Assembly (NCBI GenBank): GCA_023382335.1
Contig: JAMCPM010000011.1
Coordinates: 65,229 to 129,228, forward strand
DNA length: 64,000 nt
Direction of reading: 5' to 3'
DNA from: Actinomycetota bacterium
GTDB lineage: Bacteria > Actinomycetota > Thermoleophilia > BMS3ABIN01
Shown: piece by piece, positions 6,582-33,796 of the stretch
Position numbering within the stretch: position 1 is the first letter of the stretch
Layout of the letters: each line of letters opens with the position of its first letter
Program-made: the position numbers and the translations under genes
Notes under the pieces: generated by a model
Told to the model about the DNA's origin: nothing
The model's input: only the letters and a program-made list of their open reading frames with translations
Databases searched by the model: none

Positions 6582-7016
6582 ATGGATCTCAAGCTAGATA
6601 AAAACCTGCAAGCTCGCCTCAGAAGGGCTTTCGGGCAGTTTTGGAAATACTGCCTGGTCGGCGCCTCCGGTTTTATCATCAACCTCTTTGTGTTCTGGAT
6701 CATGGTCAACTATGCCGGAGCGCATTACCTCTTCGCGGCGACGGTTTCTTTCGCGGTTGCAGTCAGCAACAATTTCTTCCTCAACAAATACTGGACCTTC
6801 GGCAATCCCGCGGGCGACTTCTTTTCCCAGGCAGGGCGCTTTACCGTCATAAGCGTAACCAGTTGGGCGCTAAACCTTTTGATCCTGCGACTCCTCATCG
6901 AGGATGCCAACCTTGACAACCAGATCGTCGCCCAGGCCATCGCCATATCGCTGGTCACAGTACTCAACTTCTCCGGCAACAAACTGTGGAGTTTCCGGCA
7001 GACGACCGTCCGCTGA
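6582..7016 (+). CDS. GtrA-family polysaccharide-synthesis membrane protein
   Basis: 144 aa, four TM helices, FWKYCLVGASGFIINLFVFWIMVNYAG typical of the GtrA family. Confidence 0.7.
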   Translation: MDLKLDKNLQARLRRAFGQFWKYCLVGASGFIINLFVFWIMVNYAGAHYLFAATVSFAVAVSNNFFLNKYWTFGNPAGDFFSQAGRFTVISVTSWALNLLILRLLIEDANLDNQIVAQAIAISLVTVLNFSGNKLWSFRQTTVR

Positions 7017-8928
7017 GCAGCTGCGCCGGTCACAGTTTTTTCCGGTAAGAATCCTTCCGGTCATCGCCGGGGTCATCTTTCTAGCCTCTTGCTGGTTTGC
7101 GTTCCCCGGGACCGCGCTTGCCTCCGATCCCAGGCTGACCGAGCTGGAAGCCAAGCAGATCGCCGCTGCTTACGGCAGCGTCCAGAACGTCATCGCCAAA
7201 CACCCCGAACTCGAGCGCAGCGCCGCCTGGGACTCCAGCCGCGGCGTCTGGGACGTATTCTGGACCAATCCCGAGAACAGCCGCAAGCTCATCGACGTGC
7301 AGGTCGACGACGCCGCCTCGAAGGTGCTTACGGTTGACATCAAGACTGAAGCGTACGGCGACGTATTGCCGTTGATGACCGATAAGGAGGCGATAGCCGT
7401 TGCCCAGAGCGACGGCAGGGTAAGCGACTGGCTGGCCGGCAAGTCCGATGTCGATCCACAGGCCAGCCTCGGCGACAACCGCATCTGGACCGTCAGTTTC
7501 TATTCAGGTGGAAACAATATCGCCGAGGTGCTGATCGACGACACCACCGGGCTGATCACCGAGGTCAGGATCGGCCCGCAGGTTGCCTGGCAGATGGCCC
7601 GGGGCTACAATGGCGCTTTTGGCAGGATCATCAACGAGCCCTACATATGGCTGCCGCTATGCTTCCTGTTCCTGGCCCCTTTCGTCGACGTCCGCAATCC
7701 CTTCCGCCTGCTGCATCTCGATCTGCTGGCGCTGCTCTCGTTTACCGTTTCGCACTATTATTTCAACCAGGGCGACATCTTCACGTCGGTGCCTCTGACT
7801 TATCCGCCACTCGCATATATCTTCCTGAGGATGGGATACATGGCGCTCAGAAGGCCTTCCAGGGTGGAGGAGGGGGTGCCGGGCGGTGAAGGGTTGATGT
7901 CATCTACGCCGCGGCTGCATCTGAATTTCTCATCCAGGACCATCTTTATCGCCCTGATGCTGCTGCTGGTCTTCCGCATCACCATCAACGTGGCCGATTC
8001 CAATGTCGTCGACGTCGGCTACTCCGGGGTCATCGGCGCCCATCGCATCCTCGAGGGACAGACGCCCTACGGCAACATGCCGTCAGATGACAGCAACGGC
8101 GATACCTATGGCCCGCTCAACTACCTGGTCTACGTTCCCTTCGAAAGGGTGCTTCCCTGGTCGGGCTCGTGGGACGACCTGCCGGCGGCTCACGCAACGG
8201 CTATCTTTTTCGACCTGGCGGCCGTGGCCGGGATGTATTTTGCCGGCAGGCGCCTGGCGGCAAAAAATTCAGCCGGGCGCCGGCGCATCGGCCTGGCGCT
8301 TGCCTGGGGGTGGGCGGCCTTCCCTTACACGACCTTTGTGCTCAGCTGCAACGTCAACGACAGCATCGTCGCCGCTTTCCTGATCTGGGGTTTCGTCTTC
8401 CTCTCCAGCCTGCCCCTCGCGGGCGTGATGCTGGGCTTTGCAGCCTCGGTAAAATTCTTCCCCGCTATTCTGGGCCCACTGTGGGCTTCCTTCCCGCGGG
8501 CCCTCCGCGGCTGGGGTAAGCGGGCGCTGTTCGTGCTCGGGTTTATCCTGGCGGCGGCAGCGACAGTGCCGATCATCCTTTTGGGAAACGGCAGTTTCAC
8601 CACCTTCTGGGAGCGCTCGCTCAAGTGGCAGCTGGGGCGGGATTCGCCTTTCAGTATCTGGGGACAACATACTGATACGCTTGCGGGAGTGCAGCACGTG
8701 GGGCAATATGTTCTGATAGCGCTGGCGCTGGGGATATATTTCTGGCCGCCGCGAAAATCATACGTGCAAGTCGCGGCGGCGTCGGCGGCGCTGGTCACCG
8801 GTTTCGAGATCCTGTTGACACACTGGTTCTACCTTTACATACCCTGGTTCTTCCCGCTGGCGTTCATCGCTTTCCTGGGATGGACCATCAGAAGGCGCGA
8901 AAGGAGCGGCATTGCCGCCATGGTTTGA
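6904..8928 (+). CDS. Polytopic membrane protein with N-terminal periplasmic PepSY-like domains and GT87/DUF2029-like glycosyltransferase-type membrane core (start uncertain; 113-nt overlap with GtrA if ATG 6904 is used)
   Basis: RRSQFF signal-like N-region; two PepSY-like segments (AKQIAAAYGSVQNVI...; KEAIAVAQSDGRVSDW...); then more than 10 TM helices. Confidence 0.45.
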   Translation: MPTLTTRSSPRPSPYRWSQYSTSPATNCGVSGRRPSAEQLRRSQFFPVRILPVIAGVIFLASCWFAFPGTALASDPRLTELEAKQIAAAYGSVQNVIAKHPELERSAAWDSSRGVWDVFWTNPENSRKLIDVQVDDAASKVLTVDIKTEAYGDVLPLMTDKEAIAVAQSDGRVSDWLAGKSDVDPQASLGDNRIWTVSFYSGGNNIAEVLIDDTTGLITEVRIGPQVAWQMARGYNGAFGRIINEPYIWLPLCFLFLAPFVDVRNPFRLLHLDLLALLSFTVSHYYFNQGDIFTSVPLTYPPLAYIFLRMGYMALRRPSRVEEGVPGGEGLMSSTPRLHLNFSSRTIFIALMLLLVFRITINVADSNVVDVGYSGVIGAHRILEGQTPYGNMPSDDSNGDTYGPLNYLVYVPFERVLPWSGSWDDLPAAHATAIFFDLAAVAGMYFAGRRLAAKNSAGRRRIGLALAWGWAAFPYTTFVLSCNVNDSIVAAFLIWGFVFLSSLPLAGVMLGFAASVKFFPAILGPLWASFPRALRGWGKRALFVLGFILAAAATVPIILLGNGSFTTFWERSLKWQLGRDSPFSIWGQHTDTLAGVQHVGQYVLIALALGIYFWPPRKSYVQVAAASAALVTGFEILLTHWFYLYIPWFFPLAFIAFLGWTIRRRERSGIAAMV

Positions 8929-10222
8929 GACAATGAGGCAGAGGTTCGACAGTCTGCCCACCAGCAGGAAACGCTGGTTGATAACCGGCCTCTTCCTGCT
9001 GGCACAGCTGGTCATCTGGTCGGCGGTCTTCGAAGTATTCTGGTACGGCGACAGGTCGATCACCGATACGCCGGTCTACTATCAGTATGCCAGCAGGATC
9101 GCACAGGGCATGTTCCCTTACCGCGATTTTTCGCTGGAATACCCGCCGGTGGCTGTGCTGCTTTTCTCGCTGCCGCGGCTGATCTCCGGGCCGGACTATA
9201 CCTGGTTCGTCTTTGCTTTCGAGGCCGAGATGCTGGCCTTCAGCTGCGGCATCGTGGTGGTGCTCTCGATCATCGCATGGCGGCAGTGGCAGAGCATCGG
9301 CAAGCTGGCGGGAGTGCTGGGGACGTACACGATCTTTCTGCTCTGCCTGGGCTCCATCGTCGAGCTGCGTTTCGACCTGGCGGCGGCATTTCTCATCCTC
9401 GCCAGCGTCGCCTGCTTCATTACCGACCGGCGGCTGGCGGCGTGGCTGCTGCTGGGCGTCGGCATCATGACCAAGATCATCCCGGTGCTGATCGCGCCGA
9501 TCTTTCTCATCAGCCACTTCCGCCGGCGGCAGTACAATCAGATGATATCGGGGCCGGCGCTGATGCTGGTTGCCGCCCTCGCCATCGCCATTCCCTTCCT
9601 CATAGCCGCGCCGGAAGGTCTGGCGAACGCATTCCTCTATCACGTGGAAAGGCCGCTGCAGCTGGAGAGCACCTGGTCGACGCCGCTGCTGCTGATGGCG
9701 AAGTACAGCGGCTACAGCGTCTCGATCATGAACTCATACGGATCCCATAACGTTTTCTCCTCGTTGTCAAACACGCTGGCGATGCTGTCCGGCCCGGTGA
9801 CGATCCTGGTGATGCTTTTCAGTTACGGCGTCTACTGGAGGCGCAGCCGGGGAGACAGCCCCCTGCAGTGGGACAGTTCACAGGTGATCCGCTTCGCGGT
9901 CCTGACGATCGCGATTTTCATCTTCGGGGGGAAGGTCTTCTCGCCGCAGTTCCTGATCTGGCTATTGCCGCTGATCCCCCTGATCAAGGGCAGGGACCGC
10001 GGCCTGATCACGGGACTGTTCGCCGCAGTGCTGCTACTGACGCAGTGGGAATTCCCGGCACGGTACTGGGAGCTGTATCTGCTGCAGAAACAGATGGTTG
10101 TGGAAGTCGCGGCGCGGAACGTCCTCTTGGGCCTGCTGGTAGTGGTGCTGCTGGTCTCGACTGGAAGGCAGGGCCGGCTGGAGAGAGCTGAAGTCCCCGA
10201 AGCCGAGCGCGTGGCGGCCTGA
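8912..10222 (+). CDS. Polytopic membrane protein, GT87/DUF2029-like putative glycosyltransferase
   Basis: 436 aa, 10-12 predicted TM helices, paralogous in architecture to the preceding gene, which it overlaps by 17 nt. Confidence 0.45.
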   Translation: MPPWFETMRQRFDSLPTSRKRWLITGLFLLAQLVIWSAVFEVFWYGDRSITDTPVYYQYASRIAQGMFPYRDFSLEYPPVAVLLFSLPRLISGPDYTWFVFAFEAEMLAFSCGIVVVLSIIAWRQWQSIGKLAGVLGTYTIFLLCLGSIVELRFDLAAAFLILASVACFITDRRLAAWLLLGVGIMTKIIPVLIAPIFLISHFRRRQYNQMISGPALMLVAALAIAIPFLIAAPEGLANAFLYHVERPLQLESTWSTPLLLMAKYSGYSVSIMNSYGSHNVFSSLSNTLAMLSGPVTILVMLFSYGVYWRRSRGDSPLQWDSSQVIRFAVLTIAIFIFGGKVFSPQFLIWLLPLIPLIKGRDRGLITGLFAAVLLLTQWEFPARYWELYLLQKQMVVEVAARNVLLGLLVVVLLVSTGRQGRLERAEVPEAERVAA

Positions 10223-10267
10223 ATTGCCGGTCAGCGCAGCCTGATGCCGCGACGCGGGGTGCTGCTT

Positions 10268-11044
10268 TTAGTCCGCCGCGACCTGCAGCCGCTCGATCGA
10301 TGTCGCTCTGCCGTCATCGCCCGCGGAGATGAGGACCCCCTCGATCCAGACGTCATCCTGCGCGACCTCGAACTTGATCGGCATCTCGGTGATGAAACGC
10401 TGCAGGATGATCCTCTTGTCGACGCCGATAACTGAATTCCGGGGACCGGTCATGCCGGCGTCAGTGATGTAAGCCGTCCCTTTGGCAAGGATCTTCTCGT
10501 CTGCGGTCTGCACGTGGGTATGGGTGCCGATCACAGCCGTGACTCTGCCGTCGAGATAGTGCCCCATCGCCACCTTCTCGCTGGTCGCCTCGGCATGAAA
10601 ATCAAGCAGGATATGCTTGACCCCGGCCGGCAATCCTGCCAGCAGCGGCTCGATGGTCTGAAAGGCTCCGCGCGGAGCGCCGATGTAGAGGTTCCCCGAG
10701 AGATTAAGCACCCCCAGGCTGACGCCATTCTTCTCGACCACGGTCCAGCCGCGTCCCGGATTTTCGGGAAGGTAATTGGCCGGCCTGACGATGCGGTCGG
10801 AGCTGTCGAGGAAGGGAAAGACCTCCCGCTGCCGCCAGATATGGTTTCCGGTGGTGATGACATCGACGCCGCCGGAGAGGAGCTTCTCGGCGATCTTGCT
10901 GGTGATGCCGGCGCCGCTGGCGGTATTCTCGCCGTTGGCTACGACGAAATCGGCGCCGTGATCGTCGATCATTTGCGGCAGTCTCGCCAGCAGCGCCTCC
11001 CGCCCGGGCTTTCCGAATATGTCGCTGATGAACATGATTCGCAT
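10268..11044 (-). CDS. YmdB-like metallophosphoesterase (TIGR00282 family)
   Basis: MRIMFISDIFGKPGREAL...GNHIWRQRE...DFHAEATSEK are family hallmarks; start trimmed to conserved MRIMF. Confidence 0.7.
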   Translation of the reverse strand: MRIMFISDIFGKPGREALLARLPQMIDDHGADFVVANGENTASGAGITSKIAEKLLSGGVDVITTGNHIWRQREVFPFLDSSDRIVRPANYLPENPGRGWTVVEKNGVSLGVLNLSGNLYIGAPRGAFQTIEPLLAGLPAGVKHILLDFHAEATSEKVAMGHYLDGRVTAVIGTHTHVQTADEKILAKGTAYITDAGMTGPRNSVIGVDKRIILQRFITEMPIKFEVAQDDVWIEGVLISAGDDGRATSIERLQVAAD

Positions 11045-11159
11045 GAAGCCGAGTATACCAGATGTGGGCTGGGCGCCATCCGCCCGCCCGCCGCTTGGCA
11101 TCGTCTTTGCCCCTCCTATATCATCAATCCCGAAGTCAATTTTTTCCTGGAGAAATGAA

Positions 11160-12134
11160 ATGAAGATCATGATCACCGGCGGCGCCGGCTACATCGGCAG
11201 CATCGTCGCCGAAGCCTGCCTCGAGGCCGGCGACGAAGTCACCGTTTATGACAACCTGTCAACCGGCCACCGCGAGGCGGTGGCTGCAGGAGCCCGGCTG
11301 GTGGTCGGTGATGTCGCCGATGAGGAGCTGCTGCGGACCGAGCTGAGAAACAGCGGCATCGAGGCGGTCATCCACATGGCCGGATTCATCGAGGCGGGCG
11401 AATCGATGCAGGACCCTGGCAAATATTTCCGCAACAACACATGCAGGCCGGTGAGCCTGCTCGAGGCCATGGTGTCGGCGGATGTGAAACGGTTCCTGTT
11501 CTCATCCACGGCGGCAATCTATGGCGACCCGCAGACAGAAGTGCTCGCTGAAGACCATCCCCAGAATCCCACCAATGCCTATGGCGAATCCAAGCTCCTG
11601 TTCGAGCGCATTCTCGACTGGTACGACCGCATCCATGACATCAGGCATGCGGCGCTAAGATATTTCAATGCGGCCGGAGCGTCCGGTGAGAGGGGAGAGG
11701 ACCATCATCCCGAAAGTCATCTGATACCGCTGGTGCTGCAGGCGGCACTGGGCCAGCGCCCTCATGTCGAGATCTATGGCACCGACTATCCCACCGCTGA
11801 CGGGACCTGCGTGCGCGACTACATCCACGTCCGCGATCTGGCCGACGCCCACTTGCTGGCGCTGCGTCGTCTTGACGGCGAGAGCCTGCATTACAACCTC
11901 GGCAACGGCAGGGGATACTCCGTGCGCGAAGTGATCGAGACGGCCCGCGAGGTGACGGGAATCGACTTCGAGGTCAAGGAGGCCGGACGCCGCGAGGGCG
12001 ATCCGGTGGTTCTGGTTGCCGGCTCGGCGAAGATCGTGGATGAGCTCGGATGGCAGCCCCGCAATCCGTCGCTGGAGGCCATCGTTGCCAGTGCCTGGCA
12101 ATGGCACAGTTCTCATCCGGGCGGCTACAGCTAG
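11160..12134 (+). CDS. galE: UDP-glucose 4-epimerase
   Basis: MKIMITGGAGYIGS Rossmann motif, YxxxK catalytic pair; GGAGA RBS upstream of ATG 11160. Confidence 0.85.
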   Translation: MKIMITGGAGYIGSIVAEACLEAGDEVTVYDNLSTGHREAVAAGARLVVGDVADEELLRTELRNSGIEAVIHMAGFIEAGESMQDPGKYFRNNTCRPVSLLEAMVSADVKRFLFSSTAAIYGDPQTEVLAEDHPQNPTNAYGESKLLFERILDWYDRIHDIRHAALRYFNAAGASGERGEDHHPESHLIPLVLQAALGQRPHVEIYGTDYPTADGTCVRDYIHVRDLADAHLLALRRLDGESLHYNLGNGRGYSVREVIETAREVTGIDFEVKEAGRREGDPVVLVAGSAKIVDELGWQPRNPSLEAIVASAWQWHSSHPGGYS

Positions 12135-12176
12135 CCATCCTGTCTTTTTGAAAGAGGGCGCTCCCTGCGAGATATA

Positions 12177-12201
12177 AAGGGCGCCCCTGCGGGGCGCCCT
12201 T
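12177..12201 (+). terminator. Perfect hairpin AAGGGCGCCCC-TGC-GGGGCGCCCTT downstream of galE
   Basis: 10-bp GC-rich perfect inverted repeat 43 nt after the galE stop; no strong U-tract. Confidence 0.45.
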
Positions 12202-12564
12202 AAACAAACTATCCTGTTGACTTATTTGGGGGGAAGCAGCCTCTTTCCGGAATTTGGCGGAAGTAAGCCTGGACCAATTTCTCTGTGGATTTGGAGAACT
12301 ACCAACCGGATTATGCTAGTGGAGGCAAGGAAGGCGAGAATAATCAACGTTCCAGAGATGGACAGTCGGGCGAAGGTATTTACAGACAAACCGGCATGCG
12401 TCCAGCATCAACCGGACCATTGCGGCGGCTTGCCTTAAATCTCTACTCTTCAACCCAGATACCGAACTCTGAACTCTACGACAACTCGAACTCTCAACGC
12501 GAATAAAAAAACTTGGAAGTTTGTACTTGGAATGACTCCGAAAATGCTATTCAATTGTTGGTGC

Positions 12565-12723
12565 CTAATGTTCGCACACCAGCTTGCCGTGCTCGTACTC
12601 GCAGCGGGAACCATGATGGTTACCGGCACCACCGCCATATCCATCGCCGAAAGCTACGGCGCTGAAAGCCAGCGAGGCGGTGCAGATCAGCCAGACGGTG
12701 GCAAGTATTGCCCATTTCCTCAA
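12565..12723 (-). CDS. Candidate small secreted peptide (52 aa, TTG start): signal peptide plus Gly/His/Cys-rich C-terminus
   Basis: AGGAGG 7 nt upstream of TTG; LRKWAILATVWLICTASLAFSAVA|FGDGYGGGAGNHHGSRCEYEHGKLVCEH; GC3-rich codons matching genome bias; below the 60-aa cutoff of the ORF track. Confidence 0.35.
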   Translation of the reverse strand: MRKWAILATVWLICTASLAFSAVAFGDGYGGGAGNHHGSRCEYEHGKLVCEH

Positions 12724-12874
12724 ACATCCACCTCCTCTCGAACCTCAGCCTCAAGCGGCCGTTTGCGTCACCCGTGGATGTCTAGAATAGCGAAAAATCG
12801 CGGATCGGTCAATAGTTTATTTGGTTAGAAACGGCTTAAATAAGGCAAACTCATTACTCCCCGGGGGTAATAGC

Positions 12875-14932
12875 GTGAAATTCCCTCATACGCGGATGCT
12901 CGCCTGGCTGGGAACAGCCGGCATCCTGGCTATGCTGGCGTGGCTGGCGGCAGTCGACGGCGGCTATTTCTCGCGGGAATTCCTCACGGCCGCCGTAGCC
13001 GGGTGGGCTGTGGCCGGCCTGATCATCCTGGCCGGATGGGACCGGCTGGAGATCCCGCAGGGATCGGGCTGGCCGCTCATCATGCTGGCGGCGATATTCG
13101 CCTGGACCGGCCTGAGTACGATCTGGTCGATCGGCCCCGATTCTTCGCTGATGGAATTCGCGAGGGTGTCAATTTATCTGACCGGGTTCATGGCGGTGCT
13201 CTCGGGAGCCCGCAACCGCCGCAAGATATCGATCTCGGTAGCCTTTTTCGTAGCCCTGATGACGGCGCTTGCGGCTTTTGCGCTGCTGGCAAAGGTCAGT
13301 CCAGATTATTCACAGACTTATGCTTTTGCCGGCGGGCGGCTGATGGGATCGCTTGGCTACTGGAACGCGCTGGCGATTCTCATGGTTATGGGCATCCTGC
13401 CGTGCCTGTGGCTGTCGTCTTCGAGGGAAGTTTCCTGGGGCTGGAGGCCGGCGGCAACCGCTGCGCTCATGCTTATGGGGCTCACGCTCTTTTTCACCCT
13501 CTCACGCGGAGGCATTCTTGTCGGCGTGTTTGCGCTGCTCGTTTATTTGGCCGTGACGCCGCGGCGACTGGGGCTGATATTCACCCTCGCCGCCGCCTGG
13601 CTGCCGGCGGGCCTGATTGCCTGGCGTACCTACACGGCCCTGCCGACGCTGCATGCGGCGCCCGAAGGCTTCGCGATCGATCCGTCTGAAGGAAGGCAGT
13701 TTGCCTATTTATTGTTTGCCGGTCTCGTGGCTGCCGCGGCGCTCAAAGCCGTCACCCTGATTTTGCCTGACCGCATACCGCCCACCAGGGGCGCCATCGC
13801 CGCCACGGCGGCGGCGATGATTATCGCGCTCGTGGTTGTGGCGGGGATCGGCGTCAGCCAGCGCGACAGAATCTCCAGCGAGGTGGACAGCTTGAGAAAC
13901 GCGGCCCAGGTGCAGCCTGGATTCAGCGGCGTCGTATCGAGCGACGCCCGGGGCGTGGCCAGGCTGGCGAGCACCTCCGACCAGCGCACCGAGCTCTGGC
14001 AGATCGGCATGCAGAATTTCAGCGCGCATCCTGTCCTGGGGACCGGGGCGGCAACATACTATTTTGCGAATCTGAGGCTGGAGAGCGGCGTTGGCATGGC
14101 GAGGGACCCGCATTCCATCTGGGTGCGTTTCCTTTCCGACCAGGGGATCGTCGGTTTCACGCTGCTGCTCGGCTTCCTGGTGACCCTTGGCGTCGGCCTG
14201 ATCGCGCCTATGTGGCCCAACAGGGAACTGCGCCGCGACGGCCTCTACTTGAGTCTGGTGCTGGCGTCGGCCGCCTGGATCGCGGATTCCAGCCTCGAAT
14301 GGAATTGGGCGATGCCGGCAGTCGCCTTGACCTTTTTCCTGATAAACGGTCTTGCCTTGCGCCTGGCAAGCGTGGCGCCGCGAAGCGGCGCAGCCGGGAC
14401 CGGCGTGCAGCAGGCAGCCGATGGCGGCATCGATGAAAAACCTTTGCGGATACCGGTTTGGCTGCGCATGGCCGTGCTCATGTCCGGCATCACGCTGTCC
14501 ATTATTTTCATGGCGTTGCTGGTGTCTACTATCCTTGGCGACAGGGGGCGGGACCGGCTGCTGGCCGGGGACATCGACTCTGCCGCCGTCGCCGCCTCGA
14601 GGGCGCACAGGTTAGATCCTTTCGCGACCGGCCCGCTTGTGATCGAATCCCAGATTGCCGTCACGCGCGGCGATTATGCCGGCGCCAGGGATAGGCTGGT
14701 GGAGGCACTGAAGATCGAGCCGCAGCAGTCAGCGCTATACCGCAGGCTGGCAGTGATCGAATTCTATTACCTGGGAGCCACGAAAGCCGGCATAGACTCA
14801 CTCAGCCAGGCGATCGACCTCGATCCCCAGGAGCGCGGCCTGCATCTTCTCTTGCACCAGATGGTATATGACCAGGAAATCTACAACCGCACCGGGCGCA
14901 TGCCGCCGGTGCCAGAACAGGGTGATTCATGA
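12875..14932 (+). CDS. O-antigen ligase (Wzy_C) family polytopic membrane protein with C-terminal TPR domain
   Basis: FTLSRGGILVGVFALLVY Wzy_C-type motif, about 12 TM helices, C-terminal TPR-like repeats (AVAASRAHRLDP...ALKIEP...AIDLDP); GTG 12875 in frame. Confidence 0.6.
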   Translation: MKFPHTRMLAWLGTAGILAMLAWLAAVDGGYFSREFLTAAVAGWAVAGLIILAGWDRLEIPQGSGWPLIMLAAIFAWTGLSTIWSIGPDSSLMEFARVSIYLTGFMAVLSGARNRRKISISVAFFVALMTALAAFALLAKVSPDYSQTYAFAGGRLMGSLGYWNALAILMVMGILPCLWLSSSREVSWGWRPAATAALMLMGLTLFFTLSRGGILVGVFALLVYLAVTPRRLGLIFTLAAAWLPAGLIAWRTYTALPTLHAAPEGFAIDPSEGRQFAYLLFAGLVAAAALKAVTLILPDRIPPTRGAIAATAAAMIIALVVVAGIGVSQRDRISSEVDSLRNAAQVQPGFSGVVSSDARGVARLASTSDQRTELWQIGMQNFSAHPVLGTGAATYYFANLRLESGVGMARDPHSIWVRFLSDQGIVGFTLLLGFLVTLGVGLIAPMWPNRELRRDGLYLSLVLASAAWIADSSLEWNWAMPAVALTFFLINGLALRLASVAPRSGAAGTGVQQAADGGIDEKPLRIPVWLRMAVLMSGITLSIIFMALLVSTILGDRGRDRLLAGDIDSAAVAASRAHRLDPFATGPLVIESQIAVTRGDYAGARDRLVEALKIEPQQSALYRRLAVIEFYYLGATKAGIDSLSQAIDLDPQERGLHLLLHQMVYDQEIYNRTGRMPPVPEQGDS

Positions 14933-15819
14933 TGACAATTCGGCAAAGAGTTTATTGCACGGCATTATCGAAGCCTTTGATTGTAGCGATCATGCTCATG
15001 CTGGCCTTGATGGCCGCGGCCGGCTGTGGCGGCTCCTCAAACCAGGAAAATCCCTCCACGGCGACGCAGCCGGCTCAAACCGCCACGGCGCCGCCAAACA
15101 CGCCTGTTCTATACAAATTCGCGGTCTGCGGTGACAACCGTACTCTGGGAATAGACAACGGCGTGCTGCCGCGCATTCTCGATTCGGCAAAAGCCAGCGG
15201 CGCGCAGTTTATGGTCAATACCGGCGATGTGTCAAATGGCGGCACCACTGAGGAACTCCGGCGATACAAGGAGCTGATCGACGGATCGGGTCTGAAGGTC
15301 TATACGGCTCCCGGCAACCATGACATCGGCGCCGGCGGCAGGAGCGACGCTTACGCCAGCGTCATGGGCGACTATTATTTCAGCTTTGATTACCAGGCCG
15401 ATCATTTCATCGTGCTCGATAACGCCGACGACAAGACCGGCATCGACAACGCCCAGATGGACTGGTTCGAAGGCGACCTGGCCGTGAACGCAACCCGCCC
15501 GCATCAGTTCATCTTCACCCACGTTCCCGTGCCCGATCCCTCGCTGCCGTCCTCACATGTTGCCGGCGAGACCGGTCAGACGGGCCTGGAGTCAGGCAAA
15601 AGGCTGGTCGAGGATGCGAAGAAATATCCGGACGTCAGCGGCATCTTCTTCGGACATATCCACGCGTATTTCGCATACCAGCTCGACGGTATCAGCGCTT
15701 ACATAACCGGCGGCGCCGGCGCGCCCCTGTATTTTCCGGAAGGCTCAGGCGGATATTTCCACTACCTGCTGGTTAGCGTACGGGCGGAACGGGTCGATGT
15801 CGAGGTTGTCAGGGTCTAG
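14929..15819 (+). CDS. Calcineurin-like metallophosphoesterase lipoprotein
   Basis: Lipobox LMAAAGCGG; GDNR, TGD and GNHD metallophosphatase motifs. Confidence 0.7.
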   Translation: MMTIRQRVYCTALSKPLIVAIMLMLALMAAAGCGGSSNQENPSTATQPAQTATAPPNTPVLYKFAVCGDNRTLGIDNGVLPRILDSAKASGAQFMVNTGDVSNGGTTEELRRYKELIDGSGLKVYTAPGNHDIGAGGRSDAYASVMGDYYFSFDYQADHFIVLDNADDKTGIDNAQMDWFEGDLAVNATRPHQFIFTHVPVPDPSLPSSHVAGETGQTGLESGKRLVEDAKKYPDVSGIFFGHIHAYFAYQLDGISAYITGGAGAPLYFPEGSGGYFHYLLVSVRAERVDVEVVRV

Positions 15820-15825: not shown

Positions 15826-16152
15826 TTATTCCCGCTCGTAACCGAAAGCAACCGCCAGGCGGAAATGGCGGCGGGAGAGCAGCTCGTCCCCGAGTTTCTC
15901 ACCGCAGCGTCCCAGGCAGTAGTGGGCGTAACCGTTCGTGGGGTAACGGTCGACGACGAAGCGGAATTCTTCGGCAGCCCGGCCGTAGCGTCCGAAATTG
16001 TAATATGCGCGGCCAAGCGCCTCGCGGATGGAAGTTCGCTCCGGTTCCTGGTTGCGGGCGCGCTCAAGGATGATAGCGGCCTGGGCGGGATTGCCGCCTC
16101 TGAGGAAGCTCTCGCCGCGTTTGAGGAGTTCGTATGCAGTGTCGGCGCTCAA
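15826..16152 (-). CDS. Small TPR-repeat protein
   Basis: 108 aa with TPR-like helical repeats (AYYNFGRYGRAAEEFRFVVDRYPTNGYAHYCLGRC). Confidence 0.45.
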   Translation of the reverse strand: MSADTAYELLKRGESFLRGGNPAQAAIILERARNQEPERTSIREALGRAYYNFGRYGRAAEEFRFVVDRYPTNGYAHYCLGRCGEKLGDELLSRRHFRLAVAFGYERE

Positions 16153-16306: not shown

Positions 16307-17578
16307 ATGCTCGACATCAGGCGGCTCCGCAACGAGCCGGAAGATATAAAAAAAGCGCTCGCGCGCCGGGGGATCGAAGCCCCGCTGGACGAATTCGTCG
16401 AGCTGGACAAAAAACGGCGCGAGACGATTGTGGAGGCCGAGGAGAAGAAGGCGTTGCGCAATCAGGTGTCAGATGAGATCGCGATAGCTAAAAAAACTGG
16501 TGGAGAGGCCTCGGAGAAGATCCGGGCGATGAAAAAAGTGGGGGAAGAGATCAAGGCTCTCGACCTGGTGTTGAAGGATATCGAACTCAAGCTTGAAGAC
16601 ATCGTGCTCGAGCTTCCCAATACGCCCATGGAGGATGTGCCCGACGGCGCCGACGAAGCGGCGAACGTCACCGTGCGCACCTGGGGCGAGCCGCGGCAGT
16701 TCGACTTCGAGCCCAGGGCTCACTGGGACCTGGGGGCCGATCTCGGCATCATCGACGCAGAACGGGGCGCCAAGGTCGCCGAGTCGCGCTTCACACTGCT
16801 GCGGGGCATGGGGGCCAGGCTCGAGCGGTCGCTGATAAATTTCTTCCTCAACCTGCACACCAGGGAGCATGGCTACACCGAGCTCTTTCCGCCGATCCTG
16901 GTCAATAGCGACAGCATGCGCGGGACCGGTCAGCTCTCGAAATTCGCCCAGCAGGAGATGTACAAGCTGCGCGACGACGATCTCTATCTGAACCCCACCG
17001 CCGAGGTGCCGGTCACCAACATCTACCGTGACGAGATCCTCGCCGAAGAGGACCTGCCGATCCACGTCACCGCTTACCTGCCGAGCTTCCGCCGCGAAGC
17101 CGGGGCCGCCGGGCGCGACACGCGCGGGTTGATACGGCAACATCAATTCAACAAAATAGAGCTGGTCAAGTTCATGACGCCGGAGACTTCGGCGGCGGAA
17201 CTCGAGGCGCTGACGATGAACGCCGAGGAGGTCCTCAAACGCCTGGAACTGCCTTATCGCACCGTGGCGCTCTGCACCGGCGATCTGGGCTTCGCCTCGG
17301 CCAGGACTTATGACCTCGAGGTCTGGCTGCCCTCATACAACGATTTCAAGGAAATCTCCTCATGTTCGAACTATCTCGATTTCCAGGCCAGACGCCTGAA
17401 TATCCGCTACCGTCCCGCCGACGGCGGCAAGCCCCGTTTTTGCCATACCAACAATGGCAGCGGTCTTGCGGTTGGAAGGACTTTTGCGGCTGTGATCGAG
17501 AATTATCAGAATGAGGACGGCAGCATAACCGTGCCCGAGGCGTTACGCCATTACATGGGTGTGGACGTGATCGCCTAG
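16307..17578 (+). CDS. serS: Seryl-tRNA synthetase
   Basis: N-terminal coiled-coil arm plus class II aaRS core motifs (FRREAGAAGRDTRGLIRQHQFNKIE; GSGLAVGRTFAAVIE). Confidence 0.95.
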   Translation: MLDIRRLRNEPEDIKKALARRGIEAPLDEFVELDKKRRETIVEAEEKKALRNQVSDEIAIAKKTGGEASEKIRAMKKVGEEIKALDLVLKDIELKLEDIVLELPNTPMEDVPDGADEAANVTVRTWGEPRQFDFEPRAHWDLGADLGIIDAERGAKVAESRFTLLRGMGARLERSLINFFLNLHTREHGYTELFPPILVNSDSMRGTGQLSKFAQQEMYKLRDDDLYLNPTAEVPVTNIYRDEILAEEDLPIHVTAYLPSFRREAGAAGRDTRGLIRQHQFNKIELVKFMTPETSAAELEALTMNAEEVLKRLELPYRTVALCTGDLGFASARTYDLEVWLPSYNDFKEISSCSNYLDFQARRLNIRYRPADGGKPRFCHTNNGSGLAVGRTFAAVIENYQNEDGSITVPEALRHYMGVDVIA

Positions 17579-19170
17579 CAGTCGCAGGGTCGCTCCGGTG
17601 CGACGGCGCCGGCAGATGGCCCGGGCGGGGAGCCGAGCGTGAAATAAAAGGTTGCGCCTTTTTTTTCAGCAGCCTCGACCCATATCTTGCCGCCGTGCCG
17701 GCCGATGATCCTTTCGACCGTCGCCAGGCCGATGCCGGTGCCGGGAAACTCCGATTCGGTGTGTAGCCGCTGGAAAGGGCTGAAGAGATTGTCGGCGTAT
17801 TTCATGTCAAAACCGGCGCCGTCGTCACGTACGAAGCAGACCGGTCCGTCCAGGCCGGCGGCCCTGCCGAATTCGATCCGGGCGCTCTCATGCTTGCTGC
17901 TGAACTTCCAGGCATTGCCGAGTAGATTCTCCAGGACGATCGAAAGCAGGTGCTCGTCGGCCTCTGTGACCAGGCCGGGCTCGATCACGAAGTCGACCCG
18001 CCTGTCGGGCGCGGTCTGCCTGAGCGTCTCTGTGATGCGTGCGGCCAGCGCGCTTAAGTCCACCTGCTGCCGGGCCATCTCTTGCCTGCCGACGCGGGAC
18101 AGCATCAGCATGTCGTCTATCAGATCGTTCATGTGCAGGCTTGCTTTCTGGACCTGCTGAAGATCTTCCCTTCCTGCCTCCCCAAGCTTTTCGCCATGAT
18201 CCCTGAGCACGATCGTGCTGAATCCCTCGATCCTCCTGAGCGGCGCCCTCAGGTCATGGGAAACCGAATAGCAGAATGCCTCGAGCTCCCGGTTTGAATC
18301 TTCAAGGCCCCGCTTGGCGCGCGCCAGTTCCGCATTGCTCTGATTCAGCTCACGGAAGAGCAGGTTGAACGGACTGACGAGGGCGGTTCTGACTATGGCC
18401 AGATAAAAGAGGAAGAAAGCCGCTATCTTGAGCAGATGGCCGAGCATATTGGCAAAGTCAAAGACGCCGGCGTAGCTGGTGAATGCCAGCTCGGAGGCGA
18501 TCGTGACAGCGATGCTGGCGGCAAGCAGTAAAAAGACGACCCGGTCGAATGAGCGCCGTGAACGGTAAAGCAGATACAGTGAGCCCAGCAAGATAAGCGC
18601 GATTATATATTCGCTGACGATCTTGAAGGAAGTCAGGCCCTCGCCTTCGACAAAACTGGCGGGAAACCGCCGCGAAAAAATCAGGAAGAGAATCGCCGCG
18701 GTCACCGCCATGTAAACCGGCACCGCGATTTTGACATCCAGTTTGCGCGTGATGAAGATCGGCGCTATCAGCAGTGAGATGCTCTCCATGTATCTGGCGG
18801 CTATCCAGAGCTGGGTCGGCAGGTTGGAGTCATAGCCGGTGAAGACTCCCATCCCCTTGTAAGAGAGCATGTGGATCGTGTCGAGGAAGCTGAAGAAAAG
18901 GAAAGCTATGCCGATCAGCAGCAGGTAATGGATGGTCAGATACTTGCGGCTGTTCCAGGCTATGATGAATATTGCCCCGCCGATGACGATCGAGAACAGC
19001 TCGGCCAGAGCGTGGAAGAGCGGATAATCGTAAAGGCTGATGACGTAAAAAGCCGCCATAACGGCAACCGCGCAGACGGCATAGAATGCCGCCAGGGCAG
19101 AGGAGATGCCCGGCATGCGGCTTCGCCTGTTGCTGACGCCGGCCTCTATTTCCGGTGCAGTGATGTTCAA
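17575..19170 (-). CDS. Membrane sensor histidine kinase
   Basis: N-terminal multi-TM sensor region, HisKA H-box SHDLRAPLRRIEG, HATPase_c motifs (GNAWKFS, DDGAGF, GTGIGL); converges on the serS stop with 4-nt overlap. Confidence 0.8.
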   Translation of the reverse strand: MNITAPEIEAGVSNRRSRMPGISSALAAFYAVCAVAVMAAFYVISLYDYPLFHALAELFSIVIGGAIFIIAWNSRKYLTIHYLLLIGIAFLFFSFLDTIHMLSYKGMGVFTGYDSNLPTQLWIAARYMESISLLIAPIFITRKLDVKIAVPVYMAVTAAILFLIFSRRFPASFVEGEGLTSFKIVSEYIIALILLGSLYLLYRSRRSFDRVVFLLLAASIAVTIASELAFTSYAGVFDFANMLGHLLKIAAFFLFYLAIVRTALVSPFNLLFRELNQSNAELARAKRGLEDSNRELEAFCYSVSHDLRAPLRRIEGFSTIVLRDHGEKLGEAGREDLQQVQKASLHMNDLIDDMLMLSRVGRQEMARQQVDLSALAARITETLRQTAPDRRVDFVIEPGLVTEADEHLLSIVLENLLGNAWKFSSKHESARIEFGRAAGLDGPVCFVRDDGAGFDMKYADNLFSPFQRLHTESEFPGTGIGLATVERIIGRHGGKIWVEAAEKKGATFYFTLGSPPGPSAGAVAPERPCDC

Positions 19171-19228
19171 TTGGCAGGTCCTGATATACCGGCGCTTGAC
19201 AGCAGCCTGTGCTAAAATTTCATTTTCC

Positions 19229-19320
19229 GGAGGGGTGGCGGAGTCCGGCTGAACGCACCGGTCTTGAAAACCGGCAGGGGCGCAAGTCCCTCAAGGGTTC
19301 GAATCCCTTCCCCTCCGCCA
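19229..19320 (+). tRNA. tRNA-Ser (anticodon UGA), long variable arm, CCA encoded
   Basis: GGAGGGG acceptor stem, anticodon loop CUUGAAA, T-arm GGTTCGAATCC, 3' CCGCCA. Confidence 0.85.
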
Positions 19321-19326
19321 GATAAT

Positions 19327-19698
19327 CTAGTCCTCCTCCATCTCCGCTGCAAGGATCTCGTGCAGGCGCTCTCTCATCTCTTTCTTGTGCTTCCACATCT
19401 CTTTCTTCATCTTAATTTTTTCTTCAGCCATGTCAACCATTTCCTGCGCGACCGCGTCGAGCTTCTCACCCCAGCGGGCGTCGATCTTGGCCTTCATCTT
19501 TTCGATAAGAAGCTTCTTGGTGGCTTTTTTGAACAGCATGCTCGAGCCGATGCCGGCTTCCATGCCGTGCCCGCCCTTACCCCCGTGGGGCATGCCGCAG
19601 ATCGGACAGGCGTGATGACCTTTTTCCCCACCACAGGAACTGCCGTGCTCGCGGCAGCCGTGCCCGTGACCGTGTCCGTGTTCCATGCCGTAGCCCAT
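19327..19698 (-). CDS. Hypothetical His/Gly/Cys-rich putative metal-binding protein with Lys/Glu-rich helical C-terminus
   Basis: MGYGMEHGHGHGHGCREHGSSCGGEKGHHACPICGMPHGGKGGHGME...; C-terminal KKEMWKHKKEMRERLHEILAAEMEED. Confidence 0.5.
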   Translation of the reverse strand: MGYGMEHGHGHGHGCREHGSSCGGEKGHHACPICGMPHGGKGGHGMEAGIGSSMLFKKATKKLLIEKMKAKIDARWGEKLDAVAQEMVDMAEEKIKMKKEMWKHKKEMRERLHEILAAEMEED

Positions 19699-19779
19699 GA
19701 TCGCACCTCCAGGTAAACGTTTATCTGTAATAGCGGAGCCTTCCCGGGGGCGTGAAGAGTGAAACCTTGTGAGGTGAAG

Positions 19780-21400: not shown

Positions 21401-21559
21401 CAAGCGTGACGTCCCTCGGTGTGTTTCCGGGCCTCCGTCATACCGCTTCAACCCTTACCAGTAAGAACGGACTCCCGGAGACACAGCTGAAGTGCGGCAG
21501 GCGCCGCGTGTTGTCCGGCTGTTGACAGTGACAACGCTTATGATGGAAGGTATGAAATC

Positions 21560-22255: not shown

Positions 22256-22334
22256 ACGCCGCAGTTTATTTTCCGTCAAGCCGGGTACCAATCTCATGAT
22301 CTGTCTTCCGCACAAGGAGCATCGCGTGACAACC

Positions 22335-30320: not shown

Positions 30321-30346
30321 CAATTAGGCAGATAAGGAGATAGAGC

Positions 30347-33794: not shown

Positions 33795-33796
33795 TA

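What the first reader, a model, noticed from the sequence alone, without database searches (positions are those of the whole stretch)
6582..15819. Cell-envelope glycosylation locus: GtrA, two PepSY/GT87-like polytopic proteins, YmdB, GalE, Wzy_C-TPR fusion, lipoprotein phosphoesterase
The Wzy_C (O-antigen ligase) superfamily includes the bacterial O-oligosaccharyltransferases, and the C-terminal TPR array fused here (12875..14932) is a typical protein-substrate recognition module. Together with a GtrA-type flippase-associated protein, a UDP-hexose epimerase and two large GT87/DUF2029-like membrane glycosyltransferases (the first with periplasmic PepSY domains), this looks like a candidate general protein/S-layer O-glycosylation or unusual surface-glycan system rather than a classical LPS locus. 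The specific combination is not one I recognise as described.
Basis: inference. Interest (0 to 1): 0.6.

Follow-up and report, generated by a model that had tools for sequence, protein, structure and literature searches.

The report
Two envelope-glycan modules, not one system
The genes are real and mostly correctly named, but they form two separable cell-envelope sugar-transfer modules in a conserved chromosome block of an uncultured actinobacterium, and the idea that the TPR-tailed ligase-like enzyme glycosylates proteins is plausible but untested.

Summary
All the genes exist and carry the named domains. Four corrections apply:
- ymdB lies on the opposite strand.
- PepSY is sub-threshold by sequence and rests on homologues and the model.
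- Two small conserved genes were missed.
- The GT87a start is ambiguous.

The "locus" is part of a fully syntenic ileS-to-serS block in an uncultured Actinomycetota clade. Synteny within this clade therefore says nothing about function.

Comparison with more distant genomes splits the region into two modules.
- **Module A** is gtrA, PepSY-GT87 and optionally a second GT87, with ymdB convergent. It recurs in distant Thermoleophilia without any Wzy_C or galE.
- **Module B** is Wzy_C-TPR, followed in this clade by a lipoprotein phosphoesterase. It recurs elsewhere without GtrA or GT87, three times near a GalE-like epimerase.

No GT2, GT4, initiating transferase or Wzx is detected in the 64 kb.

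The Wzy_C protein has a WaaL fold, an invariant Arg/Arg/His set and an outward-facing TPR. The architecture is widespread but I found no study of it. An O-oligosaccharyltransferase role is my favoured reading. Ligase or polymerase roles are not excluded.

Interest is modest.

The parts
6582..7016 (+). gtrA: small 4-TM GtrA-family protein, the proposed translocator of polyprenyl-phosphate-sugar. First gene of module A.
   Evidence: PF04138, E 1.7e-26. Orthologues sit next to the PepSY-GT87 gene in every related locus, including distant ones at 41-44% identity.
6904..8928 (+). GT87a: an N-terminal membrane anchor, then two extracytoplasmic PepSY-like modules (about 7141-7341 and 7381-7572), then a GT-C/GT87-like polytopic domain (about 7573-8892). 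This is the most conserved piece of module A. The start codon is uncertain: ATG 6904 is the only canonical in-frame start.
   Evidence: The C-terminal half scores GT87 at 28.3 bits. There are 6608 homologues, many carrying PF09594 or PF03413. 87 columns are invariant across 30 sequences, including N319-x-x-D322-V-G-Y. AF2 gives pLDDT 85.3. Foldseek matches PIGU, PimE, ALG3, ArnT and YpmB. Start-codon check.
8912..10222 (+). GT87b: a second GT-C/GT87 membrane glycosyltransferase. It overlaps the GT87a stop by 17 nt and has an AAGGAG ribosome-binding site, which suggests translational coupling.
   Evidence: GT87 at 30.1 bits against a cut-off of 25, plus a weak ALG3 match. DNA. It is not detectably similar to GT87a by BLASTP. 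A homologue at 33% identity follows GT87a in L007.
10268..11044 (-). ymdB: a TIGR00282-family cytoplasmic metallophosphoesterase, convergent with GT87b. It is a conserved neighbour, not an operon member, and is probably housekeeping.
   Evidence: PF13277 E 3e-99; TIGR00282 at 269.6 bits against 254. It is convergent to the GT87 gene even in distant loci L006-L008.
11160..12134 (+). galE: UDP-glucose 4-epimerase, its own transcription unit, followed by a GC hairpin at about 12180-12205.
   Evidence: TIGR01179 at 399 bits against 262. Sequence. GalE-like epimerases also lie next to or near distant Wzy_C-TPR genes in L009, L032 and L033.
12565..12723 (-). Small secreted peptide, 52 aa: a signal peptide followed by a tail of about 25 aa rich in His, Asp and Gly, containing two Cys. 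It is conserved at this position across the clade, sometimes in two copies. Its function is unknown and it is probably unrelated to glycosylation.
12875..14932 (+). Wzy_C-TPR, 685 aa. A 14-TM WaaL-fold core (Pfam Wzy_C about 13736-14170) is followed by one extra TM helix (about 14456-14524). Then come three extracytoplasmic TPR repeats with a capping helix (about 14567-14893). The probable start is GTG 12875, which has a GGGGG Shine-Dalgarno sequence; the TTG at 12821 has none.
   Evidence: Wzy_C E 1.7e-14. AF2 pLDDT 89.5, pTM 0.89. Foldseek finds WaaL 7tpg at E 4e-8, and TPR proteins at TM-score 0.8-0.9. The family profile against PDB finds 7tpg at 5.7e-14. R211, G389, G391, H413 and W478 are invariant; R371 is invariant in A1 and at least 90% conserved in A4. 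Topology was read from the helices and the positive-inside loops.
14929..15819 (+). Extracytoplasmic metallophosphoesterase lipoprotein. Its start overlaps the Wzy_C stop (ATGA). A linker rich in Ser, Thr, Ala and Pro follows the lipobox cysteine. It is an accessory gene, absent from one subclade.
   Evidence: PF00149 E 1.2e-12. DNA. Linker conservation. Absent in L004, L016 and L018.
15826..16152 (-). Small 108-aa TPR protein without a signal peptide. It is conserved between the Wzy_C unit and serS. Its role is unknown.
   Evidence: TPR_16 E 3.8e-15. Orthologues at 63-74% identity in all clade loci. No hydrophobic segment.

Best explanation
The region is a stretch of a conserved chromosomal block (ileS to serS) in an uncultured Actinomycetota lineage that also carries sat-apr-qmo-like genes. 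Two separable extracytoplasmic glycan-transfer modules happen to lie side by side in it.

**Module A: gtrA, GT87a and GT87b, a probable operon.**
- It looks like a Gtr-type "three-component" module whose cytoplasmic GT2 partner is encoded elsewhere.
- A polyprenyl-monophosphate hexose would be brought to the outer face, with GtrA as the proposed translocator.
- Two unrelated GT-C enzymes would then each add single sugars to an envelope glycoconjugate. Mannose is the guess, by analogy with GT87.
- GT87a carries two outward PepSY-like modules. It is so conserved across Thermoleophilia-like genomes that its substrate is probably a core envelope component.

**Module B: Wzy_C-TPR plus the translationally coupled lipoprotein phosphoesterase, with galE as a recurrent neighbour.**
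- The enzyme has a WaaL fold and keeps the Arg/Arg/His set that WaaL and PglL share.
- It should therefore take a polyprenyl-diphosphate-linked glycan made elsewhere and transfer it en bloc at the outer face of the membrane.
- One extra TM helix puts three TPR repeats outside the cell.

**My favoured reading, which is inferred.** The TPR recruits protein acceptors, making this an O-oligosaccharyltransferase. The linker of the adjacent lipoprotein is a candidate substrate.

**Shown versus inferred.** Domain identities, folds, topology logic and genomic separability are shown. Donor, acceptor, sugar identity and any cooperation between modules A and B are inferred. ymdB, the small peptide and the small TPR protein are neighbours only.
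For: **Domains and folds**
-.

**Operon structure**
- GT87a and GT87b overlap by 17 nt. Wzy_C and the phosphoesterase overlap as ATGA. The galE-Wzy_C gap is about 740 nt and holds an opposite-strand gene.

**Separability of the two modules**
- PepSY-GT87 homologues at 46% identity keep GtrA and a convergent YmdB, and in L007 also GT87b. They have no Wzy_C or GalE within 10 kb.
- Wzy_C(-TPR) homologues at 25-31% identity have no GtrA or GT87 within 8-10 kb.

**Recurrent epimerase link**
- L009: a GalE at 54% identity lies immediately downstream.
- L032: an epimerase lies two genes away, with LytR_C and GT2 genes nearby.
- L033: the gene sits inside a cluster of GT4s, epimerases and a Bac_transf initiating transferase.

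**Catalytic set and topology**
- R211, H413, G389 and G391 are invariant; R371 is at least 90% conserved across 61 diverse representatives.
- This matches the R215/R288/H338 triad shared by WaaL and PglL (PMC3643930).
- The cytoplasmic loops RNRRK, TPRR, DRIPPTR and NRELRRD alternate correctly, which places the TPR outside.

**The architecture is a widespread family**
- 2236 cluster representatives at E<=1e-10. 122 of the top 150 are at least 600 aa long.
- Wzy_C is found in 61 of 61 scanned representatives, and TPR in at least 38 of 61.

**Published paradigms**
- The three-component GtrA/GtrB/GT-C scheme: PMC11127046, PMC5836110, PMC7389260.
- pglL genes often sit next to their target proteins: PMC3643930.
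- The adjacent lipoprotein has a conserved Ser/Thr/Ala/Pro-rich linker.
Against: - No GtrB/Ppm1-type GT2, initiating transferase, Wzx or cytoplasmic glycosyltransferase is detected in the 64 kb. Both donors are therefore hypothetical.
- Separability at large distances does not exclude cooperation in this clade. Gtr systems do decorate Und-PP-linked glycans before WaaL ligation (PMC11127046).
- Nothing tested here separates an O-OTase from a ligase or a polymerase.
- No PglL-specific family was hit. TfpM scored 26.6 bits against a cut-off of 600.
- Ser/Thr/Pro-rich linkers are common in lipoproteins generally, and the phosphoesterase is missing in one subclade.
- To my knowledge, en bloc O-OTases have not been described in Actinomycetota. 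Their known protein O-glycosylation uses PMT enzymes.
- TPR domains also scaffold polysaccharide export machines. An outward TPR is therefore not specific for protein substrates.
Confidence: 0.5

Rival explanations
1. All the genes form one dedicated general protein or S-layer O-glycosylation pathway. An Und-PP-linked glycan containing Gal (supplied by GalE) is decorated at the outer face by GT87a and GT87b, using GtrA-delivered polyprenyl-P-sugars. Wzy_C-TPR then transfers it to proteins.
For: The scheme is mechanistically coherent. Gtr-type GT-C enzymes modify Und-PP-linked glycans before a Wzy_C-family ligase acts (PMC11127046). All the genes are adjacent and conserved in every clade member. 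The TPR faces outward. The adjacent lipoprotein has an acceptor-like linker.
Against: The whole ileS-serS block, housekeeping genes included, is equally conserved, so adjacency is uninformative. The two modules occur independently in more distant genomes. ymdB is convergent on the opposite strand. There are at least four transcription units. No glycan assembly genes were detected in the window.
Confidence: 0.2
2. Wzy_C-TPR is a lipid- or wall-directed ligase, like TacL or WaaL. It would transfer a polyprenyl-PP-linked glycopolymer onto a membrane glycolipid anchor or hand it to wall-attachment enzymes. The TPR would dock partner proteins, not substrates.
For: The only solved-structure match to the membrane core (residues before the TPR) in the fold search is WaaL. 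In Gram-positive bacteria a Wzy_C protein, TacL, ligates teichoic acid chains to a glycolipid (PMC5727136). The gene is an orphan, single and lineage-conserved, like ligases. A LytR_C-domain gene neighbours the homologue in L032.
Against: Neither WaaL nor TacL as described carries or needs a TPR (7tpg chain 403-413 aa; TacL 397 aa, PMC5727136). No glycolipid-anchor or polymer synthesis genes lie nearby. From my knowledge, every characterised TPR-glycosyltransferase fusion (OGT, TMTC) uses the TPR for protein acceptors or adaptors.
Confidence: 0.25
3. Wzy_C-TPR is a Wzy-type polymerase of an exopolysaccharide or wall polysaccharide. The TPR would act as a built-in scaffold or chain-length module.
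For: A 30%-identical homologue in a Solirubrobacterales MAG (L019) sits beside Wzc-like (GNVR/AAA_31), acetyltransferase and Wzx (Polysacc_synt) genes. L033 places a TPR-bearing homologue in a GT4/PGT cluster. TPR scaffolds are common in polysaccharide secretion systems (from my knowledge).
Against: The L019 homologue aligned only over query residues 70-507, so no TPR was matched. In the window clade, and in L009, L010, L011 and L032, the gene is not in a Wzx/Wzc cluster. From my knowledge, Wzy polymerases are normally hypervariable and cluster-embedded. This gene is a conserved single orthologue at a fixed position.
Confidence: 0.15

Closest known systems
WaaL O-antigen ligase (Cupriavidus metallidurans, PDB 7TPG)
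   Same: Same Wzy_C domain and GT-C_B-type fold (Foldseek E 4e-8; profile E 5.7e-14). The conserved Arg/Arg/His set lies in outward loops, which implies a polyprenyl-PP-glycan donor.
   Different: There is no LPS context and the host is an actinobacterium. The protein is about 280 residues longer, with two more core TM helices, a 15th TM helix and an outward TPR domain. Identity is only 16%.
PglL / PilO / TfpM-type O-oligosaccharyltransferases
   Same: Same Wzy_C superfamily and the same catalytic triad. The gene is an orphan next to a possible acceptor protein, as for many pglL genes (PMC3643930).
   Different: No PglL-specific Pfam family was hit. TfpM scored 26.6 bits against a cut-off of 600. 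Known O-OTases have no TPR and come from Gram-negative bacteria. Activity was not tested.
TacL, the lipoteichoic acid ligase of Streptococcus pneumoniae
   Same: A Wzy_C-family enzyme of a monoderm bacterium, encoded as an orphan gene, that transfers an Und-PP-linked polymer to an acceptor outside the membrane (PMC5727136).
   Different: TacL is 397 aa with no TPR. Its acceptor is a glycolipid. No teichoic acid genes are present here.
Gtr / CsbB-GtcA-YfhO three-component extracytoplasmic glycosylation systems
   Same: A GtrA-family protein is encoded next to GT-C glycosyltransferases, the hallmark of polyprenyl-P-sugar-dependent modification outside the membrane (PMC11127046, PMC5836110, PMC7389260).
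   Different: The GT2 polyprenyl-P-sugar synthase is not encoded in the window. There are two GT-C enzymes of different families. One carries PepSY-like modules. The target glycan is unknown.
PimE and other mycobacterial GT87 polyprenyl-P-mannose mannosyltransferases (PDB 9DM5)
   Same: Pfam GT87 matches above threshold. The GT-C_A fold matches PimE (E 1.3e-3, TM-score 0.52 on the target). An invariant Asp lies in the first outward loop region.
   Different: Identity is 13-14%, so there is no orthology. No PIM, LM or LAM genes are nearby. The N-terminal PepSY-like modules are absent from PimE. Donor and acceptor were not tested.
TMTC1-4 and OGT (TPR-fused glycosyltransferases of eukaryotes)
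   Same: A glycosyltransferase is fused to a TPR array on the side of the membrane where catalysis occurs. In those enzymes the TPR selects protein acceptors (from my knowledge).
   Different: The catalytic families are unrelated (GT105 / GT41), with different donors and no homology. This is an analogy only.

Membership tests
Wzy_C / O-antigen ligase superfamily (PF04932) | Pfam Wzy_C match above the gathering score | tested here: met
   54.3 bits against a cut-off of 31.7, E 1.7e-14. 61 of 61 family representatives also match.
Wzy_C / O-antigen ligase superfamily (PF04932) | WaaL-like polytopic fold | tested here: met
   AF2 pLDDT 89.5. The best PDB match is WaaL 7tpg_B, E 4.1e-8.
Wzy_C / O-antigen ligase superfamily (PF04932) | Conserved Arg, Arg and His in outward loops (E. 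coli WaaL R215/R288/H338; PglL R224/R298/H349) | tested here: met
   R211 (SRGG) and H413 (RDPHS) are invariant. R371 is invariant in A1 and at least 90% conserved in A4. The correspondence was inferred from order and spacing, not from a superposition.
PglL-type O-oligosaccharyltransferase | PglL-specific flanking motifs (PglL_A / PglL_B of PMC3643930; a Pfam PglL_A model exists, from my knowledge) | tested here: not met
   No such family appears among the Pfam hits at E<=0.01 for this protein, or for any of 61 relatives. NCBIfam TfpM scored 26.6 bits against 600.
PglL-type O-oligosaccharyltransferase | Transfer of an Und-PP-linked glycan to Ser/Thr of proteins | not testable with these tools
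   This needs heterologous expression or glycoproteomics.
PglL-type O-oligosaccharyltransferase | Adjacent gene for an acceptor protein (frequent, not obligatory) | tested here: inconclusive
   The co-transcribed lipoprotein has a conserved Ser/Thr/Ala/Pro-rich linker. Such linkers are common, and the gene is absent from one subclade.
WaaL lipid A-core ligase | Location in an LPS core (waa) cluster of a diderm with lipid A | tested here: not met
   No waa, lpx or other LPS genes were detected in the 64 kb. The source is annotated as an Actinobacteria MAG.
Wzy polymerase of a Wzx/Wzy-dependent pathway | Embedded in a glycan cluster with Wzx, a co-polymerase (Wzz/Wzc) and glycosyltransferases | tested here: not met
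   None of these were detected in the window. A distant homologue without a matched TPR does have this context (L019).
Gtr-type three-component glycosylation system | GtrA-family small membrane protein | tested here: met
   PF04138, E 1.7e-26.
Gtr-type three-component glycosylation system | GT-C fold transferase encoded alongside | tested here: met
   GT87a and GT87b.
Gtr-type three-component glycosylation system | GtrB/Ppm1-type GT2 polyprenyl-phosphate sugar synthase | tested here: not met
   No GT2 domain was detected in the ORFs scanned across the window. It may be encoded elsewhere in the genome.
CAZy GT87 (PF09594) | Pfam GT87 match above the gathering score | tested here: met
   GT87b scores 30.1 bits against 25. 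The GT87a C-terminal half scores 28.3 bits against 25, but full-length GT87a gave no hit.
CAZy GT87 (PF09594) | Polyprenyl-phosphate-mannose donor and alpha-mannosyl transfer | not testable with these tools
   Only fold similarity to PimE 9dm5 is available (E 1.3e-3, 14% identity).
PepSY domain (PF03413) | Pfam match above the gathering score | tested here: not met
   15.3 bits against 24, E 0.026.
PepSY domain (PF03413) | Helix plus four-stranded sheet fold; homologues carry the domain | tested here: inconclusive
   The AF2 model shows two helix plus four-strand modules. Foldseek matches YpmB 9a5z and 2gu3 at E 0.04-0.18. Several homologues have precomputed PF03413.
TPR repeat | Paired-helix repeats recognised by sequence and by structure | tested here: met
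   TPR_11 scores 28 bits against 26.8 on the C-terminal fragment. Six helices span residues 567-673. Foldseek TM-score is 0.8-0.9 to 3-repeat TPR proteins.

The most novel reading that the evidence does not exclude
Wzy_C-TPR is the first en bloc protein O-oligosaccharyltransferase of Actinomycetota. It would also be the first Wzy_C enzyme whose acceptor selection is delegated to a fused extracytoplasmic TPR domain, a bacterial analogue of TMTC and OGT logic. It would glycosylate lipoprotein linkers such as that of the co-transcribed phosphoesterase. In this clade its glycan would be pre-decorated by the neighbouring GtrA/GT87 module.
Probability: 0.2. Interest if true: 0.6.

Novelty: new variant of a known kind. 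Interest (0 to 1): 0.35.

Why it matters
If the TPR-tailed Wzy_C enzymes glycosylate proteins, a large family would gain a function. The family has about 2,200 sequence clusters at E<=1e-10, mostly from uncultured Actinomycetota and relatives. En bloc protein O-glycosylation would then extend to monoderm Actinomycetota. A naturally modular O-OTase, with a catalytic core plus a swappable recognition domain, would interest people who engineer glycoconjugates.

The PepSY-GT87 protein matters separately. It is unusually conserved, with 87 invariant columns across proteins only 43-70% identical to it. It is always paired with GtrA. This points to an unstudied core envelope glycoconjugate in Thermoleophilia-like bacteria.

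As it stands, the locus is an annotated, plausible and untested example. It is not a surprise.

Tried and rejected
**Searches that led nowhere**
- A genome-contig scan with the single Wzy_C-TPR protein found no relative.
- The diverse alignment A1 had no stretch conserved enough to scan with. The closer alignment A3 worked.
- PDB sequence searches found nothing for either GT87 protein.
- PADLOC gave no defence-system hits.
- Rfam found nothing in the galE-Wzy_C spacer.
- Literature searches found no study of a Wzy_C+TPR or PepSY+GT87 protein.
- The consensus promoter and terminator scan was uninformative.

**Ideas considered and rejected**
- The small secreted peptide as the glycosylation acceptor. 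It has no conserved Ser or Thr across orthologues, and its tail is rich in His, Asp and Cys.
- GT87a and GT87b as recent duplicates. They show no BLASTP similarity.
- The lipoprotein phosphoesterase as a YmdB paralogue. They show no significant similarity.
- The upstream 346-aa protein and the class-V aminotransferase as glycan genes. Neither hits a glycosyltransferase family (the 346-aa protein has no Pfam hit; the other matches only aminotransferase families), both are cytoplasmic, and neither is linked to GtrA outside this clade.

**A note on coordinates**
- I first used 7048 as the GT87a start. The DNA shows AGA there, not a start codon. The 7048-8928 translations were used only as trimmed queries.

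Full report
**What is there**

- GtrA, 6582-7016 (+): PF04138, E 1.7e-26.
- GT87a, a 674-aa polytopic protein, 6904-8928 (+).
- GT87b, 8912-10222 (+): GT87 at 30.1 bits against a cut-off of 25.
- YmdB, 10268-11044, on the minus strand: PF13277 E 3e-99, TIGR00282 above its cut-off.
- GalE, 11160-12134 (+): TIGR01179 at 399 bits against 262.
- A Wzy_C protein with C-terminal TPRs, 12875-14932 (+): Wzy_C at 54.3 bits against 31.7.
- A metallophosphoesterase lipoprotein, 14929-15819 (+).

- A 52-aa secreted peptide rich in His, Asp and Cys, on the minus strand at 12565-12723.
- A 108-aa TPR protein without a signal peptide, on the minus strand at 15826-16152.

The sequence belongs to a MAG labelled "Actinobacteria bacterium". 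The Wzy_C protein is 100% identical to a deposited protein from a 397-kb contig.

**The two large membrane proteins**

GT87a gives no Pfam hit when scanned full length. Several other lines identify it.
- Its C-terminal half scores GT87 above threshold (28.3 bits).
- Its 6608 detected homologues are frequently annotated GT87/DUF2029, and some carry PF03413, the PepSY domain.
- An AF2 model built on 30 homologues has pLDDT 85.3. It shows a membrane anchor, two helix plus four-strand modules and a polytopic body.
- The body matches PIGU (E 8.6e-4) and mycobacterial PimE (E 1.3e-3), and then ALG3, ArnT and AftB more weakly. The N-terminal modules match YpmB weakly.

PepSY itself is sub-threshold by sequence here (15.3 bits against 24). 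I rate it likely, not shown.

GT87a is strikingly conserved. 87 columns are invariant among 30 sequences that are 43-70% identical to it. They include an N-x-x-D-V-G-Y motif that I infer holds the GT-C catalytic Asp, D322.

GT87a and GT87b are not detectably similar by BLASTP. They are two different GT-C enzymes, not duplicates.

The GT87a start is a detail to flag. The codon where homologues start is GTA/AGA here. The only canonical in-frame start is ATG 6904, which overlaps gtrA by 113 nt.

**The Wzy_C-TPR protein**

An AF2 model built on 47 homologues is confident, with pLDDT 89.5 and pTM 0.89.
- The only solved structure matching the membrane core (residues before the TPR) is the WaaL O-antigen ligase 7TPG. 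Foldseek gives E 4e-8, and the family profile against PDB gives 5.7e-14.
- The last 120 or so residues match three-repeat TPR proteins at TM-score 0.8-0.9.
- R211 (SRGG), G389, G391, H413 (RDPHS) and W478 are invariant across 47 and 61 diverse relatives. R371 is invariant or at least 90% conserved.
- This corresponds in order and spacing to the R215/R288/H338 triad that WaaL shares with PglL (PMC3643930).

I therefore infer a polyprenyl-diphosphate-linked glycan donor.

I read the topology from the model's helices and the sequence.
- The short loops RNRRK, TPRR, DRIPPTR and NRELRRD alternate as cytoplasmic loops.
- The large conserved loop at 329-414 falls outside.
- One extra helix, 528-550, carries the chain out again.
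- The TPR domain is therefore extracytoplasmic. This is an inference, not an experiment.

**Is it one locus?**

Within the clade where the Wzy_C orthologue is 45-77% identical, the gene order is identical in every contig recovered.
- The order is ileS, a 160-aa membrane protein, a class-V aminotransferase, a 346-aa protein, gtrA, GT87a, GT87b, ymdB(-), galE, peptide(-), Wzy_C-TPR, (phosphoesterase), TPR(-), serS.
- Collinearity continues beyond serS (one search compared).
- Because housekeeping genes are just as fixed, this synteny is not evidence of shared function.

Transcription is also split into separate units.
- GT87a and GT87b overlap by 17 nt.
- Wzy_C and the phosphoesterase overlap as ATGA.
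- ymdB is convergent on the other strand.
- About 740 nt separate galE from Wzy_C. This spacer holds a hairpin and the opposite-strand peptide gene.

**What larger distances show**

Module A travels without module B.
- GT87a homologues at about 46% identity, from soil Thermoleophilia-type contigs, still have gtrA immediately upstream and ymdB convergent downstream.
- In one case a GT87b homologue is present too.
- None has a Wzy_C or galE within 10 kb.

Module B travels without module A. Wzy_C(-TPR) homologues at 25-31% identity never have GtrA or GT87 neighbours. Their contexts vary.
- L010 and L011: an orphan gene among housekeeping genes.
- L009: a 54%-identical GalE follows directly.
- L032: an epimerase, a LytR_C protein and a GT2 lie nearby.
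- L033: the gene sits inside a cluster of GT4s, epimerases and a Bac_transf initiating transferase.
- L019, a shorter homologue with no matched TPR: it sits in a Wzx/Wzc-type cluster.

So there are two modules. The one association that recurs independently for Wzy_C-TPR is with a GalE-like epimerase.

The rest of the 64-kb window shows no GT2, GT4, initiating transferase or Wzx among the ORFs scanned.

**How it most likely works**

Module A fits the published three-component scheme (PMC11127046, PMC5836110, PMC7389260).
- A GT2 makes a polyprenyl-P-sugar.
- A GtrA-family protein is proposed to move it outward.
- A GT-C enzyme transfers it.
- Here the GT2 is not in cis and there are two GT-C enzymes.
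- The sugar (mannose, by GT87 analogy) and the target are inferred. The target may be a core lipoglycan or wall glycoconjugate, judging from GT87a's conservation.

Module B should transfer a preassembled polyprenyl-PP-glycan at the outer face. Which acceptor it uses cannot be read from sequence, because PglL and WaaL needed experiments to tell apart (PMC3643930).

I favour a protein acceptor, that is an O-OTase, at roughly 0.35-0.4. Four reasons support this.
- The gene is a conserved orphan, not part of a variable polymer cluster.
- The TPR faces outward.
- From my knowledge, the characterised TPR-glycosyltransferase fusions use the TPR for protein acceptors.
- The translationally coupled lipoprotein carries a conserved linker rich in Ser, Thr, Ala and Pro.

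Four points count against it.
- No PglL-specific family is hit.
- Such linkers are common, and the lipoprotein is missing from one subclade.
- TacL shows that Wzy_C enzymes of monoderm bacteria can be lipid-directed ligases (PMC5727136).
- The L019 and L033 contexts keep a polymerase role open.

Cooperation between modules A and B in this clade is mechanistically possible. Gtr enzymes decorate Und-PP-glycans before ligation. It is not required by the genomic evidence.

**Novelty and score**

The Wzy_C plus extra TM plus TPR architecture is common.
- An exhaustive search gave 4886 cluster representatives at E<=1e-3, 2236 at E<=1e-10 and 73 at E<=1e-30.
- 122 of the best 150 are at least 600 aa long.
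- Of 61 diverse representatives, all have Wzy_C and at least 38 have Pfam-detectable TPRs.
- Databases already label these proteins "O-antigen ligase family protein".
- I found no paper studying a Wzy_C+TPR or PepSY+GT87 protein.

My verdict is that the region holds uncharacterised variants of known kinds. The "unrecognised combination" is a lineage-specific juxtaposition.

Interest is 0.35. The hypothesis is reasonable and testable. The locus itself is neither surprising nor decisive for an open question.

Noticed in passing
window 12565-12723 (-); orthologues in L001 9556-9720, L003 9747-9914, L004 8997-9182 and 9714-9878, L014-L018: A conserved 47-61-aa secreted peptide. It has a near-identical signal peptide (MRKWAIL..LAFGAVAF) followed by a tail of about 25 aa rich in Asp, His and Gly, with two Cys (the CEY..G.LVC motif). 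It always lies between galE and Wzy_C-TPR, sometimes in two copies. It might bind metal. It has no conserved Ser or Thr.
   Followed up: partly
window 12446-12503 (+): A conserved non-coding element with three or four GAACTC(T) repeats. A 32-nt core is identical in L001, although the flanking proteins are only 54-78% identical. It has no Rfam match, and its RNA folds less stably than shuffled sequence. A protein-binding DNA site or an unstructured RNA seems more likely than a structured RNA.
   Followed up: partly
window 28559-37543 (+): A dissimilatory sulfur cluster in an Actinomycetota MAG. It comprises ATP sulfurylase (28559-29773), an AprA-like flavoprotein (30347-32347), and QmoA/B/C-like genes (32508-33794, 33797-36145 with an FlpD domain, 36155-37543). 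The same cluster follows serS in the related contigs L001 and L003.
   Followed up: partly
window 6904-7050: GT87a lacks a canonical start codon where its homologues start; the codons there are GTA and AGA. The only in-frame ATG/GTG/TTG is at 6904, which gives a 113-nt overlap with gtrA. Gene callers disagree, giving 671-674 aa or 543 aa.
   Followed up: yes
window 10268-11044 (-) and L006-L008: ymdB is convergent to the PepSY-GT87 gene (or to GT87b) in this clade. The same holds in Thermoleophilia-type contigs whose GT87a is only about 46% identical. This is an unexplained, long-lived adjacency of a cytoplasmic phosphoesterase with an envelope glycosyltransferase operon.
   Followed up: partly
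window 52094-55321 (+): A 1075-aa ORF with no Pfam match at E<=1e-5.
   Followed up: no
window 38996-46141: A cluster of tRNA genes (three tRNA-Ser and two tRNA-Arg here, with a fourth tRNA-Ser at 19229). An rve-family integrase ORF (40482-41288) begins inside or abuts tRNA-Ser(cga) at 40459-40552. GC content dips to 0.53-0.55 around 38-42 kb. This may be an integrated element.
   Followed up: no
window 24889-26196 (+): An Acyl_transf_3 membrane acyltransferase, of the OafA-like glycan O-acyltransferase family. In L001 its orthologue lies directly after serS. In the window it is displaced by an inserted segment carrying a MASE3 histidine kinase and a GAF protein (17575-24464).
   Followed up: no
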